A stretch of 29,174 bases of DNA. It comes from Bryobacterales bacterium. GTDB taxonomy: Bacteria > Acidobacteriota > Terriglobia > Bryobacterales > UBA6623. The stretch covers positions 1 through 29,174 of the forward strand of contig JAKZVK010000965.1 in assembly GCA_047516085.1 (NCBI GenBank), read 5' to 3'. Positions 5,149-8,609 of the stretch are shown in pieces. The notes below the pieces were generated by a model. The model was given only the letters and a program-made list of their open reading frames with translations. It was not told the DNA's origin and did not search any database. The first letter of the stretch is position 1, and each line of letters starts with the position of its first letter. Position numbers and translations under genes: made by a program.

Positions 5149-7016
5149 TCTCCTCCTTGGAATAAAACGCCTGTGTGGCGCTGGAACTGCGAGCTTGAAC
5201 GAGTGCCACTGGCACTTGTGAAAAGCGGTCTAAACTCCGGCCTACGGCGAACGAGCGCTTCTGGATATCCCAGCGAGATAGCCTGCTCCATACGAGCCTG
5301 TGCCTCCGGCAGCTCGCCGATCGCCATATAGACCCGTGCGGCCTGAATCTGGGTCCTTGAATCATCGGGGGATAGCGCGAGTGCTTCGCGAATTCGATGA
5401 AGCGCCTCTTCCCTTCGGCCCAACCGCGCGGCATACCGAGCCCAGTAGGCGAGGTACGTCGGATTCCGAGGCGATTGTTTAAGCGCCTGCTCAAGAAGCC
5501 CAAGCGAACGCTCGTACGCGGTTTGCCAAGCGACTTGCTCTACTCCTATTGTGAAGTGAACGTCAGCCAGACCACCCCAGACCACATAGTCATCGTTGGT
5601 CACTGCCAAGGATTGCTCGTAGAGGTCAATGGCTTTGGCATAGTCGCCTTCCTCGAAGCTCAGGGATGCTAGGTTGAAGAAAGCTCGGTGCTGGTTCGGA
5701 TCCAGCTCCGCTGCGCGCCGGAACATCGCTTTCGCCTCCGCGAAATTCTCGCTGAAATAGAGCATCGTTCCGAGGTTGACGTATCCATGAACGTTATCCG
5801 GAGTCAGTCGAACAGCCTGCCGCATTTGGTCGGCTGCCTCCTGGTAGTGGCCCTGGCGATAATAGAAGAGTCCCAAGCGGTTGTAGCCGTCCCAATACCT
5901 TGGACGGATGCCAATGGCACGTCGGAGCGTGTTTTCGGCCTCTTCGGGGCGCCCGAAGGCTTCGTAGGCGCGCGCCAGACCGTGATGTGCCTCCACGTTC
6001 CGCGGATCCAGGTCCAGTGCTCGGTCAAAGTCGGCAACGGCTTCCCGATATCGGCCCTGCTCCGAGTGCGCATATCCCAGCGTGGCATGAACTTGCGCAA
6101 GACTTGGGTCGAGCTCCAACGCATGGTTGCAGTGTTCGATCGCCACGTCGGCAGCATCCAAGTGTTTCAGGTGCTTATAGCGATACCAATAGGCGCGGCA
6201 CAGACCGGCAAAAGCCGGCGCGAAGTCTTGGTCCTTCCTGCTCGCGCTCTCGAAGAGGTCAATGGCGGTATCGATGTTCTCGGGCCGATCGAAGCGCTGT
6301 AGGTAGCCCTGTCCCTGAAGAAGTAATTCGTAAATACCGGGGACAGTTGCAGCGTTGTCGTCGGCCGCGGTCAGAACATCGTCGCTCGCGTTCAGATCGA
6401 GTGCTTCGACCAAGCTTGCCACCACCCGCTGCTCCAGACCAAGAGGATTGGCTTCACTGCCCAAGATCTCCTGGGACCGCAATTGGGTGAGATCGACAGC
6501 ATCGACGACATTCAGAATAAGTCGAATACGTTTGTCGCTCTCTTGAACGCTACCGGTAACTACGAGCTGGGCGCCGAACTCGCGCTGTGCCTCGGCTGCG
6601 GAGTGAATATCCTTGCGGATCACTTCGCTCACAGGAGTGACAACCAGCGAAGTGTTCGATAGCTCCATTTCGGTCAGTCGGCTCGCCACAACTTCCATGA
6701 GTCCGTCGCAAAAGGCCTGTCGATCCGCAGTGCTGCCCGAACAGCGAAACGGTAAGACGACTACATGCTTCGTGCCGTTCGAGACCTGTGAACCCGTGGA
6801 CCAATGATCCCGAGTTGCCACGAGCGCCAGCACCGCCGAGAGCAACGCGGCCAGAAGCCCAGCCATCGCGCCCACAGGAAGCCGAAGACGATTCGCCTTC
6901 CCAGCCTCATCCTGTAAACGCGTACTAGGGTCCGTGATTGGGGCCAAATCGATCGAAAAATTGTTCGCTGTTCTCTGCTGGCCCCCGGAACCAGATTCAC
7001 GCGCCTGTTTCAATGC
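5145..7016 (-). CDS. Membrane-anchored TolB-like/TPR protein (C-terminal sensor module typical of Ser/Thr kinases), 5' end lost or cut by IS
   Basis: Hydrophobic segment AMAGLLAALLSAVLALV, TolB-like domain (VVVLPF...DGL...LVVTGSV), many TPRs. The listed start at 7070 lies inside the IS; the first host ATG is at 6866. Start uncertain. Confidence 0.8.
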   Translation of the reverse strand, partial: ALKQARESGSGGQQRTANNFSIDLAPITDPSTRLQDEAGKANRLRLPVGAMAGLLAALLSAVLALVATRDHWSTGSQVSNGTKHVVVLPFRCSGSTADRQAFCDGLMEVVASRLTEMELSNTSLVVTPVSEVIRKDIHSAAEAQREFGAQLVVTGSVQESDKRIRLILNVVDAVDLTQLRSQEILGSEANPLGLEQRVVASLVEALDLNASDDVLTAADDNAATVPGIYELLLQGQGYLQRFDRPENIDTAIDLFESASRKDQDFAPAFAGLCRAYWYRYKHLKHLDAADVAIEHCNHALELDPSLAQVHATLGYAHSEQGRYREAVADFDRALDLDPRNVEAHHGLARAYEAFGRPEEAENTLRRAIGIRPRYWDGYNRLGLFYYRQGHYQEAADQMRQAVRLTPDNVHGYVNLGTMLYFSENFAEAKAMFRRAAELDPNQHRAFFNLASLSFEEGDYAKAIDLYEQSLAVTNDDYVVWGGLADVHFTIGVEQVAWQTAYERSLGLLEQALKQSPRNPTYLAYWARYAARLGRREEALHRIREALALSPDDSRTQIQAARVYMAIGELPEAQARMEQAISLGYPEALVRRRPEFRPLFTSASGTRSSSQFQRHTGVLFQGGD

Positions 7017-7104
7017 ATAGGTAGTGGCAAAGAGGAATCCTCCCGGGGGCAAAATGCTGAGAGCGGCCACGCGGTCGGCTCAGAGCCAATCCCAGGAGGA
7101 TTCC

Positions 7105-8133
7105 ATGCCAGAACTCTACTACATCGGACTCGATGTCCATAAGAAAAGCATCAGCTTCTGCATCAAAACGGCGGACGGCACCCTCGTCGCCCGCGGCCAG
7201 GTCGCGGCCACTCGCGCCGCCCTGACCGCTTGGGCGTCAGCCCTCGAACGCCCTTGGGTGGGCGCGCTCGAAGCCACCCTGTTTACCGGCTGGATTTACG
7301 ATCACCTCCAGCCCTTCGCCCAGGAACTGCAAGTCGCACACCCGGCCATGCTCAAGGCCATCGCCTGCGCCAAGAAGAAGAACGACCGTCTCGACGCCAC
7401 CAAGATCTGCGACCTGCTGCGCTGCAACCTGCTGCCGCGCTGCTACGTGGCGCCGCCCGCCCTGCGCGAGTTGCGGCGCGTGCTGCGCTATCGCAATCTG
7501 CTGGTGGGCGAAGCCGTCCGCATGAAGAACAAAATCAGCGGGCTACTGATGGAAGTGGGCGAACCCTACGATGCCCGGCGGCTGCACGGGCACAACTATT
7601 TCTACTCCTATCTCGACAGCCTGCGCGACACGCCCGAGTCGGTGATCGAGCTGCTCGCCATCACCCGCGGCAGCCTGGAAATGTTCGATCGTTTGCAGCA
7701 GGAGTTACTGCGCGGATTGCGGCGCCATCCGCTGTTGCGGGAACGCGTCGAGTTGCTGCAGTCGATTCACGGCGTGGGGGAGGTGACGGCGTTGACCTGG
7801 GCGCTGGAGACCGTCGAGCCGGAGCGCTTCGGTTCGCTGGGCCAGGCGGTGAGTTACTGTGGGCTGTGTTCGGCACAGCGCGAGTCGGCCGGCAAGACGC
7901 AGCGGGGACCGCTGTCGAAGCAGCGCAACAAGCATTTGCAGCGGGTGCTGATCGAGGCGGCGAAACTGGCGCCGCGCTGGAACCCGCAACTGCACGACGT
8001 CCATGAGCGGGAGTTGACGCGCGGGTCTCGCAATCGCGCGACGTTGGCCGTGGCGCGCAAGTTGGTGGCGTATCTGCGGGCCGTGGACACCAGTGGCCGC
8101 GCGTTCGTGCCGCGGGTGGCGGCCGAGGCGTAA
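7105..8133 (+). CDS. IS110-family DEDD transposase/recombinase
   Basis: GGAGGA SD then ATG 7105; YIGLDVHK, LEAT, KNDRLDA (DEDD RuvC-like domain); C-terminal YCGLCSAQRESAGK with the conserved Ser; LIEAA and AVARKL motifs. Confidence 0.96.
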   Translation: MPELYYIGLDVHKKSISFCIKTADGTLVARGQVAATRAALTAWASALERPWVGALEATLFTGWIYDHLQPFAQELQVAHPAMLKAIACAKKKNDRLDATKICDLLRCNLLPRCYVAPPALRELRRVLRYRNLLVGEAVRMKNKISGLLMEVGEPYDARRLHGHNYFYSYLDSLRDTPESVIELLAITRGSLEMFDRLQQELLRGLRRHPLLRERVELLQSIHGVGEVTALTWALETVEPERFGSLGQAVSYCGLCSAQRESAGKTQRGPLSKQRNKHLQRVLIEAAKLAPRWNPQLHDVHERELTRGSRNRATLAVARKLVAYLRAVDTSGRAFVPRVAAEA

Positions 8134-8474
8134 CGAGAAGAATTTGTTTTTTTCTGTTAAAAGGAGAAACGAAGAGTTTTATCGACGCTGTGCGGTGTCA
8201 CGAGCGGCCCGCCGGTCCTCGCCTGTTGGGGACTACGCGAAGGAGTTTGCTGGGAGTTTCCTGGGAAATTTCTGATGCGTCCGTATCTCTGTTTCGAGGC
8301 CGGCGGGCCTGAAAACCCAAACTGAATCTTCCGCGACGGTCCCCGGCCGGTACGGTGGGGTGACCCGATGCGCGCACATGGATGTCTGGTCACGTGACTC
8401 GTTGACCTTGCGACTTGATTCGCAAAAACGCTCGGGCTGCGAAGCGTCACTGCTGAAGACAACGCCCCCGCTGA
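8134..8474 (+). ncRNA. Candidate bridge/seek RNA region of the IS110 element
   Basis: Long stem 8206-8221/8295-8309; stem GTGACC 8360-8365/GGTCAC 8388-8393 enclosing CATGGATGTC (8377-8386), identical to the right insertion junction 8519-8528. Transcript limits and strand not determined. Confidence 0.6.
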
Positions 8475-8522
8475 CGGGAGGATTCGGATGACTGCGTCCA
8501 TCCTTGACAGATACCTATCATG

Positions 8523-8569
8523 GATGTCCCCGACTTCCCCCGACTTCCCCGACTTCCCCCGACTTCCCC
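8523..8569. repeat. Short tandem repeat GACTTCCCC(C) x4 plus one degenerate unit
   Basis: Units at 8532, 8542, 8551, 8561 alternate 10/9/10/9 nt; GATGTCCCC at 8523-8531 is a degenerate unit adjoining the IS end. Confidence 0.9.
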
Positions 8570-8609
8570 GCGAATGGGCGGGTTGAGAAACTCACTCGTC
8601 GTTAGGCGC

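What the first reader, a model, noticed from the sequence alone, without database searches (positions are those of the whole stretch)
8357..8393. IS110 3' non-coding region contains a stem-loop carrying a 10-nt copy of its own insertion site (readable bridge/seek-RNA target guide)
Seen: stem GTGACC/GGTCAC encloses ATGC (8368-71) and CATGGATGTC (8377-86). The reconstructed empty site is ...TTTCAATG-CAT-GGATGTCCCC. The 10-mer equals core plus right flank exactly (8519-28). ATGC is the reverse complement of the left flank plus core (GCAT, 7015-18), giving a long direct guide and a short antisense guide in one loop. A specified 10-mer in about 390 nt is expected by chance at roughly 1e-3 or less; the 4-mer alone is not significant. 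Known: IS110/IS1111 recombinases use an element-encoded RNA that base-pairs with both target strands. Inference: a programmable recombinase whose target, CAT core and guide can be read from this one copy, with a long (about 390 nt) 3' NCR.
Basis: partly seen in the sequence, partly recalled or inferred. Interest (0 to 1): 0.75.

Follow-up and report, generated by a model that had tools for sequence, protein, structure and literature searches.

The report
Donor guide of an IS1111-type bridge RNA
The repeated 10-mer is real, but it is the part of a known kind of transposon-encoded bridge (seek) RNA that recognises the element's own right end; the guides that pick the insertion site lie about 90-150 bases upstream.

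Summary
The element was delimited wrongly. Thirty-eight or more copies in two sister genomes and three empty sites show that it spans 7009-8527. It is flanked by (T)GT and inserted into ...C-TGT-CCCC..., so there is no CAT core. The second 10-mer is therefore the last 7 nt of the right end, the GT core and one flank base.

Nineteen variants support a two-loop RNA of about 185 nt at 8207-8390 (38 pairs, 23 with compensatory changes). The 10-mer is the 3' strand of the second, donor-binding loop. It stays constant while targets change, and it changes together with the right end in four distant relatives.

The target guides are GTTGGGGAC (8225-33, antisense to GT+CCCCGAC) and CTGT (8289-92). Both covary with the flanks in permutation tests.

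Verdict: an IS1111-type member of the IS110 RNA-guided transposase family in Bryobacterales (Acidobacteriota). It is a new member of a known kind. No direct evidence for the RNA was obtained.

The parts
7009..8527 (+). The insertion sequence: 1519 bp counting one copy of the shared TGT. TGT also stands at 7006-7008 on the left.
   Evidence: Flanks of 24 copies diverge at these points. Empty sites in G000 contigs C373, C103 and C586 match occupied sites in G002. RNA- and DNA-library contigs break at 7004 and at about 8536-8541.
7006..7008 (+). Left copy of the core: GT, usually with the T before it.
   Evidence: The empty site GCGCA-CTGT-CCCC becomes ...CTGT|TTCAATG...GGATGT|CCCC. Left junctions read CGT in G019 and in one G003 copy, so only GT is always shared.
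7009..7016 (+). Right-donor segment (RD), the first bases of the left end: TTCAATGC.
   Evidence: Lies between the core and the subterminal repeat. Its TTCA covaries with the RDG: TTCA/UGAA, TTGA/UCAA, TTAG/UUAA.
7017..7023 (+). Left subterminal inverted repeat, ATAGGTA.
   Evidence: Reverse complement of 8512-8518. Kept across the family.
7018..7118 (+). 5' leader hairpin that pairs the ribosome-binding site (7094-7104) and the start codon region with 7034-7043.
   Evidence: Folds at -50.9 kcal/mol, z = -5.66, 0 of 200 shuffles as good. Its function is inferred.
7105..8133 (+). Transposase/recombinase gene, 342 aa.
   Evidence: Pfam DEDD_Tnp_IS110 plus Transposase_20. NCBIfam NF033542 'IS110 family RNA-guided transposase', 179.8 bits against a cut-off of 140. 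Weak similarity to ISCro4 (9t56) and IS621 (8wt6).
8207..8390 (+). Predicted bridge/seek RNA: helices P1-P6 and two internal loops.
   Evidence: RNAalifold on 19 variants. 94.9% of cells paired against 81% in shuffles and 30-42% when partners are slid; 23 of 38 pairs show compensatory change. The ends of the RNA are not known.
8225..8233 (+). Right-target guide (RTG), GTTGGGGAC. It is antisense to core GT plus the right flank CCCCGAC (8526-8534), with one U.G pair.
   Evidence: 5' strand of the first loop. Covaries with the right flank in 15 guide types; 1 of 20000 permutations reaches the observed value with G.U pairs, 0 of 20000 with Watson-Crick pairs only. Its last two bases follow the core: AC/GT, UC/GA, CC/GG.
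8284..8294 (+). Left-target guide strand. CTGT (8289-92) has the same sense as the left flank C plus core.
   Evidence: 3' strand of the first loop. Bases 5' of TGT match the left flanks in relatives (G033 GGTGAC, OZ252114 GTAGAC, L235 TCAAC). Permutations reaching the observed value: 5 of 20000 for positions -8 to -1, 0 of 20000 for -6 to -1. In this lineage only C-TGT is specified.
8318..8330 (+). Right-donor guide strand (RDG). TGAATC (8323-28) is antisense to the left-end start GTTTCA, with one mismatch.
   Evidence: 5' strand of the second loop. Relatives have TGAAAC. G009 has TGAAACATCC, a perfect complement of the circle junction. Three pair states covary with the left end.
8377..8386 (+). 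The left-donor guide (LDG) is ATGGATGT (8378-85), same sense as the right end plus core. C8377 is A in most distant relatives. C8386 matches the first flank base.
   Evidence: 3' strand of the second loop. Identical to the right end in the great majority of family members examined; a few copies differ by one base. It changes with the right end in L215, L220 and L229 (ATAGATG) and in L241 (ATGGATGG).
8504..8509 (+). TTGACA in the right end, a candidate -35 of a promoter formed only in the excised circle (18 nt, then TTCAAT of the left end).
   Evidence: Read from the sequence. The hexamer, or a one-base variant, is kept in most of the family. Junction promoters are documented for ISEc11 (PMC11187229). 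Not tested here.
8512..8518 (+). Right subterminal inverted repeat, TACCTAT.
   Evidence: Reverse complement of 7017-7023.
8519..8527 (+). Left-donor segment CATGGAT plus core GT, the true end of the element.
   Evidence: Partial tandem copies join ...GGATGT directly to internal sites.
8528..8569 (+). Right target flank, a 4.3-copy tandem array of CCCCGACTTC. Its first unit is the sequence read by the RTG.
   Evidence: Tandem Repeats Finder. Right flanks of other copies begin CCCC, often followed by GAC or AAC.

Best explanation
Window 7009-8527 is an IS1111-type insertion sequence of the IS110 family. Its 342-aa DEDD recombinase works with an RNA of about 185 nt encoded downstream of the gene (about 8207-8390). 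The RNA has two similar internal loops.

The first loop binds the target. Its 5' strand (GUUGGGGAC, 8225-33) pairs with the top strand of core GT plus the right flank CCCCGAC. Its 3' strand (CUGU, 8289-92) pairs with the bottom strand of the left flank plus core.

The second loop binds the donor, meaning the joined ends of the excised circle. Its 5' strand (UGAAUC, 8323-28) pairs with core plus the start of the left end. Its 3' strand (AUGGAUGU, 8378-85) pairs with the bottom strand of the right-end tip plus core.

Recombination at the GT core inserts the circle into short C-TGT-CCCC sites, often in REP-like palindromes or CCCCGACTT arrays.

Shown here: the boundaries, the empty sites, the covarying helices, and covariation of all four guide strands with flanks or ends. 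Inferred: that the RNA is made, that it binds the recombinase, the circle intermediate and the junction promoter.
For: - Boundaries and core: 24 copies; three empty sites; 28 and 10 distinct insertions.
- Protein family.
- Structure: (38 pairs, 94.9% paired, 23 pairs compensatory, 0 of 500 shuffles reach any of the five measures).
- RTG: (cognate 4.87 of 7 pairs, non-cognate 3.92; 1 of 20000 permutations with G.U, 0 of 20000 with Watson-Crick only). Searches give examples: G033 UUCGGUGAC with GT|CACCGA; G023 GGGUAGCGAC with GT|CGCTACC; G035 UUCGGGGAC with GT|CCCCGAA; L220 AAUUGGGGUC with GA|CCCCAATT; L241 UUUGGUGCC with GG|CACCAAA.
- Sister species: G002 has GUUGGGGAC, and A is the commonest base at flank position 5 (14 of 28). 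G003 has GUGGGGGAC, and C is the commonest there (6 of 10).
- LTG: (0 of 20000 permutations for -6 to -1).
- LDG: nearly invariant with the right end; four covarying relatives.
- RDG.
- Guide order (the top-strand match lies 5' of the bottom-strand match) and the downstream non-coding region fit the published IS1111-type seekRNA (PMC11187229). The bridge RNA lies in the right end of IS1111 elements in PMC11208160.
Against: - There is no direct evidence that the RNA exists. Contigs from RNA libraries of three studies cover the element, but they cannot show strand, ends or true transcription.
- No sigma-70-like promoter was found, and there is no Rfam match.
- LDG covariation rests on about three lineages, and two relatives (L216, L235) show a single mismatch.
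- In this lineage the RDG has one mismatch next to the core, and the left flank is specified only as C-TGT.
- P4, which closes the donor loop, has only 3 pairs, and an alternative partner exists.
- The permutation tests do not correct for relatedness of the elements.
- Guide strings were extracted with patterns I wrote.
Confidence: 0.85

Rival explanations
1. One reading: the loop is the target-binding guide. CATGGATGTC copies a CAT core plus the right flank, and ATGC is antisense to the left flank.
For: The 10-mer does recur at the junction region. Its last base, C8386, matches the first true flank base in nearly every copy.
Against: Empty sites and copy comparison place 8519-8527 inside the element. 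The loop is unchanged in elements whose targets differ (G033, G023b, G010). ATGC is replaced in relatives that keep GCAT. The flank-covarying guides are elsewhere.
Confidence: 0.04
2. The two 10-mers are DNA sites rather than an RNA guide: a repeated recombinase-binding or end-mimic motif. The apparent guide role would be a by-product.
For: Both copies are almost invariant, so most of the family gives no covariation. At the DNA level the internal copy behaves as a recombination site: four G002 loci join a right end directly to the sequence that follows 8385. There is no direct RNA evidence.
Against: The internal copy sits in a loop framed by helices with compensatory changes. It occupies the same place as the strand in the first loop that covaries with targets. 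It changes in step with the right end in L215, L220, L229 and L241. This matches the published donor-loop logic.
Confidence: 0.08
3. A chance repeat with no function.
For: None beyond the short length of the motif.
Against: 0.11 matches expected in the window. Conserved down to 59-66% transposase identity across several phyla.
Confidence: 0.01

Closest known systems
IS1111-family seekRNA elements (ISEc11, ISKpn4, ISPa11; Siddiquee et al. 2024, PMC11187229)
   Same: - The non-coding region is downstream of the transposase gene.
- The transposase length (342 aa) is within their 330-350 aa range.
- There are subterminal inverted repeats.
- The segment complementary to the target top strand lies 5' of the segment complementary to the bottom strand, and the two overlap at the insertion point.
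- A TTGACA in the right end could form a junction promoter.
   Different: - The subterminal repeat is only 7 bp and lies 8 nt and 6 nt from the ends.
- The C-terminal motif reads GLCSAQRESAG rather than GL-P----S(T)G.
- That paper describes target matches in an RNA of 82-96 nt. Here a second, donor-matching loop is evident and the conserved RNA is about 185 nt.
- The host is Acidobacteriota.
IS621 bridge RNA (Durrant et al. 2024, PMC11208160; Hiraizumi et al. 2024, PMC11208158)
   Same: Two internal loops, one for the target and one for the donor. Each has one strand that pairs with the bottom strand of left segment plus core and one that pairs with the top strand of the right segment. Dinucleotide core. 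DEDD plus Ser recombinase.
   Different: The RNA is in the right end, not the left. The order of the strands within each loop is reversed. The core is GT, not CT. I found no covariation that would indicate handshake guides. Protein similarity is weak (E = 8e-8).
ISPpu9 and its Ssr9 RNA module (Pares-Guillen et al. 2025, PMC12288879)
   Same: An IS110-family element that targets REP-like palindromes, with extra copies of the downstream RNA module elsewhere in the genome without the transposase gene.
   Different: Ssr9 was reported as not required for transposition. Here the orphan copies are fragments of the guide RNA itself. Whether they move or act is unknown.

Membership tests
IS110 family RNA-guided transposases | DEDD (RuvC-like) N-terminal domain plus Transposase_20 C-terminal domain, above the curated cut-off | tested here: met
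   PF01548 and PF02371. NF033542 scores 179.8 bits against a cut-off of 140.
IS110 family RNA-guided transposases | Insertion without a long target duplication, at a short core shared by element and target | tested here: met
   Empty and occupied sites share only (T)GT.
IS110 family RNA-guided transposases | An element-encoded structured RNA whose loops match the target and the donor | tested here: met
   Structure. Target guides. Donor guides. Production of the RNA was not shown.
IS1111 group | The long non-coding region and the guide RNA lie downstream of the transposase gene | tested here: met
   5' non-coding part 96 nt (7009-7104), 3' part 394 nt (8134-8527). RNA at 8207-8390.
IS1111 group | Subterminal inverted repeats of 7-17 bp | tested here: met
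   ATAGGTA 7017-23 and TACCTAT 8512-18, 7 bp, the lower limit of the range. Conserved in relatives.
IS1111 group | The top-strand match lies 5' of the bottom-strand match in the RNA | tested here: met
   RTG 8225-33 precedes LTG 8289-92. RDG 8323-28 precedes LDG 8378-85.
IS1111 group | The transposase clusters with IS1111-type proteins and carries the GL-P----S(T)G motif | tested here: inconclusive
   The motif region reads GLCSAQRESAG. No phylogeny with ISfinder references was made.
IS1111 group | Circular intermediate with a junction promoter | not testable with these tools
   TTGACA-18 nt-TTCAAT would form on joining the ends. No circle-junction joint was seen in the contigs.

The most novel reading that the evidence does not exclude
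The transposase-less pieces seen around this family may be made by the recombinase acting on internal look-alike sites, including the DNA that encodes the donor guide. They may then persist or move as non-autonomous modules that supply or titrate guide RNA in trans.

The pieces are:
- 333-bp tandem modules holding the whole guide RNA plus the right end;
- 142-bp right-end tails joined exactly after the guide 10-mer;
- donor-loop-only orphans in this genome;
- solo right-end palindromes of about 30 nt, flanked by inverted target halves.
Probability: 0.2. Interest if true: 0.5.

Novelty: new member of a known kind. Interest (0 to 1): 0.3.

Why it matters
Bridge and seek RNAs of IS110/IS1111 elements are already described, so the finding adds no new principle.

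It does give a fully delimited Acidobacteriota lineage with more than 60 insertions in many species. In this lineage all four guide strands can be assigned, and natural retargeting can be seen. One example is a single U-to-G change between sister species that shifts the preferred flank.

It also shows that guide and target cannot be read safely from a single copy. That error turned a donor guide into an apparent target guide.

The short, degenerate target (C-TGT-CCC plus a few bases) and the tandem RNA modules may interest people who engineer these recombinases.

Tried and rejected
- Rfam 15 at E <= 1: only a chance microRNA match.
- Sigma-70 promoter scan of 6950-8600: none found.
- Empty site for the window's own locus: the left flank is absent from the three sister genomes, and the orthologous right-flank loci have other upstream sequence. 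Empty sites were taken from other insertions instead.
- Reads: only contigs were available. They cover 7004-8541 in RNA libraries of three studies but cannot show transcription, strand or ends, and they show no circle junction.
- An 11-bp inner repeat (GAATCCTCCC 7037-46 and its complement 8477-86) was first considered as the subterminal repeat. Its left arm is better explained as the arm of the leader hairpin that pairs with the ribosome-binding site.
- Handshake-type extension of the same-sense strands (UUC after CUGU, C after AUGGAUGU): the bases stay constant when the left end changes, so there is no support.
- Over-representation of TGTCCCCGAC in this fragmentary genome: not seen, 10 found against 22 expected.
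- My early guess that the host was a planctomycete was wrong. Record titles name Bryobacterales.

Full report
**Observation.** CATGGATGTC occurs twice in the window, at 8377-86 and 8519-28, against 0.11 matches expected from shuffles. The ORF between them encodes a 342-aa protein (7105-8133). It carries DEDD_Tnp_IS110 and Transposase_20 domains and matches NCBIfam NF033542, 'IS110 family RNA-guided transposase', at 179.8 bits against a cut-off of 140. It is distantly similar to the solved ISCro4 and IS621 recombinases.

**Boundaries.**
- The window's genome is a fragmentary MAG that holds one full copy of the element.
- Two sister genomes hold many copies: G002, whose record is titled a Bryobacterales MAG with about 30 or more copies, and G003.
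- In 24 copies the flanks diverge left of the bases C-TGT-TTCAATGCAT and right of CATGGATGT-CCC.
- Three G002 insertions have uninterrupted counterparts in the window's own genome. One example is GCGCA-CTGT-CCCCTCGC, against GCGCACTGT|TTCAATG...GGATGT|CCCCTCGC.
- The element is therefore 7009-8527, 1519 bp with one copy of the shared (T)GT.
- The window's pre-insertion site was ...CGCGCC-TGT-CCCCGACTT....
- Left junctions reading CGT in G019 and in one G003 copy suggest that the strictly shared core is GT.
- A 7-bp subterminal inverted repeat flanks the two tips: ATAGGTA at 7017-23 and TACCTAT at 8512-18.

**RNA structure.**
- The region 8290-8394 is conserved across genera.
- An alignment of 19 distinct variants of 8204-8421 gives a consensus of six helices.
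- On that structure 94.9% of cells pair, against 81% in column shuffles and 30-42% when partners are slid. Twenty-three of 38 pairs show changes on both sides, and no shuffle reaches any of the five measures.
- In window coordinates, P1 is 8207-21 with 8295-8308. It closes a first internal loop whose strands are 8222-33 and 8284-94, with P2 and P3 inside.
- P4 is 8315-17 with 8388-90. It closes a second loop whose strands are 8318-30 and 8375-87, with P5 and the variable hairpin P6 inside.
- The two loops have the same layout, including a shared GATGCG element.
It has 61% of cells paired, no compensatory change, and does no better than shuffles.

**Which strand reads what.** I fetched 91 further right ends from nine genomes of the family and parsed guides, ends and flanks.

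*First loop, 5' strand (right-target guide).*
- This strand ends in GGGAC and is antisense to core GT plus the right flank.
- It changes with the flank. Examples: G033 UUCGGUGAC with GT|CACCGA in 15 insertions; G023 GGGUAGCGAC with GT|CGCTACC; G010 GAAGGGGAC with GT|CCCCTT; G035 UUCGGGGAC with GT|CCCCGAA.
- Over 15 guide types, cognate pairs score 4.87 of 7 positions beyond GTC and non-cognate pairs 3.92. One of 20000 permutations reaches this with G.U allowed, and none with Watson-Crick pairs only.
- For the window the guide GUUGGGGAC (8225-33) pairs with GTCCCCGAC (8526-34), with one U.G pair.
- G002 has the same guide. Among its 28 distinct insertions, A is the commonest base at flank position 5 (14 of 28) and CCCCAAC-like flanks recur.
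- G003 has GUGGGGGAC, and C is the commonest base at that position (6 of 10).

*First loop, 3' strand (left-target guide).*
- This strand carries bases of the same sense as the left flank, followed by UGU.
- It covaries with the left flanks: 0 of 20000 permutations reach the observed value for positions -6 to -1.
- Clear cases are G033 GGTGAC, OZ252114 GTAGAC and L235 TCAAC.
- In the window's lineage only C-TGT is specified.

*Second loop (donor guides).*
- The second loop matches the element's own ends.
A few copies differ by one base. It holds even where targets differ.
- Transposase relatives at 59-66% identity in other phyla keep the architecture: Scalindua, Desulfobacterota, Geobacter, Sumerlaeaceae and Anaerolineales.
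- In these relatives the strand changes with the right end: AUAGAUGU with ...CATAGATG in L215, L220 and L229, and AUGGAUGG with ...CATGGATGG in L241.
- Two relatives show one mismatch.
- The first base of the 10-mer is A in most distant relatives, so the guide proper is 8378-85.
- The 5' strand (UGAAUC here, UGAAAC in others) is antisense to the start of the left end. It shows three pair states with it: UGAA/TTCA, UCAA/TTGA and UUAA/TTAG.
- In G009 this strand is a perfect 10-nt complement of the joined ends.
- The last two bases of the right-target guide follow the core: AC with GT, UC with GA, CC with GG.

**Comparison with known systems.**
- Published work places the guide RNA downstream of the gene in IS1111-type elements. 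It also places the top-strand match 5' of the bottom-strand match (PMC11187229) and describes separate target and donor loops (PMC11208160 and PMC11208158).
- The present element meets these features, has a 7-bp subterminal repeat and has a transposase of the typical length.
- Its C-terminal motif deviates, and no phylogeny was made.
- I file it as an IS1111-type member of the IS110 family, a new member of a known kind.

**Limits.**
- No tool showed the RNA itself. Contigs from RNA libraries of three studies cover 7004-8541, which is compatible with transcription but does not prove it.
- No promoter was detected, and Rfam has no matching family.
- The circle intermediate and the junction promoter (TTGACA 8504-09, 18 nt, then TTCAAT) are inferred by analogy with ISEc11.
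- The permutation tests treat guide types as independent although the elements are related.

**Other features.** Partial tandem copies, orphan donor-loop fragments and short solo right ends occur in this family. They are listed under things noticed in passing and were not explained.

Noticed in passing
G002/G003 loci L038, L046, L051, L057; L162-L207: Right ends (...GGATGT) are joined directly to internal positions of another copy. Each of these positions is preceded by GT in the intact element. The recurrent ones correspond to window 8196 (4 loci, giving 333-bp tandem modules that hold the whole guide RNA plus the right end), 7913 (2 loci) and 8386, directly after the guide 10-mer (4 loci).
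   Followed up: partly
G000 contigs C566 (L002 about 1500-1668) and C687 (L003 about 737-895): Two intergenic copies at 90-91% identity, equivalent to window about 8300-8476 (C566) and about 8300-8455 (C687), with no transposase nearby. They keep the donor-binding loop (one has CACGGATGTC) and have compensatory changes in hairpin P6. They lack the target loop and the right end.
   Followed up: partly
G000 contig C699 about 2890-2932; L071, L072, L079, L148-L150: Solo right ends of about 30 nt (ATCC-TTGACA...CATGGATGT). They are preceded by GGGGAC-like sequence, the reverse complement of the target right half, so the piece sits between inverted target halves. Their origin is unexplained.
   Followed up: partly
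window 7018-7118: The left-end leader folds into a strong hairpin (-50.9 kcal/mol, z = -5.66). It pairs the ribosome-binding site and the start region with 7034-7043. This probably blocks translation of read-through transcripts.
   Followed up: partly
window 8528-8569: A tandem array of CCCCGACTTC (4.3 copies) lies directly at the insertion point. Similar CCCCGACTT or CCCACTT arrays and AAAGTCG...CGACTTT palindromes flank other copies, so the element seems to favour REP-like repeats.
   Followed up: partly
L002 about 640-1500 and many G000 contigs: An unrelated repeat of about 480 bp, tandemly duplicated in C566 and present in dozens of contigs of this genome.
   Followed up: no
G000 contig C66 (L004 1160-1242): An 85% match to 92 nt of the transposase gene. 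It is probably a diverged second IS110-family copy in the same genome.
   Followed up: no
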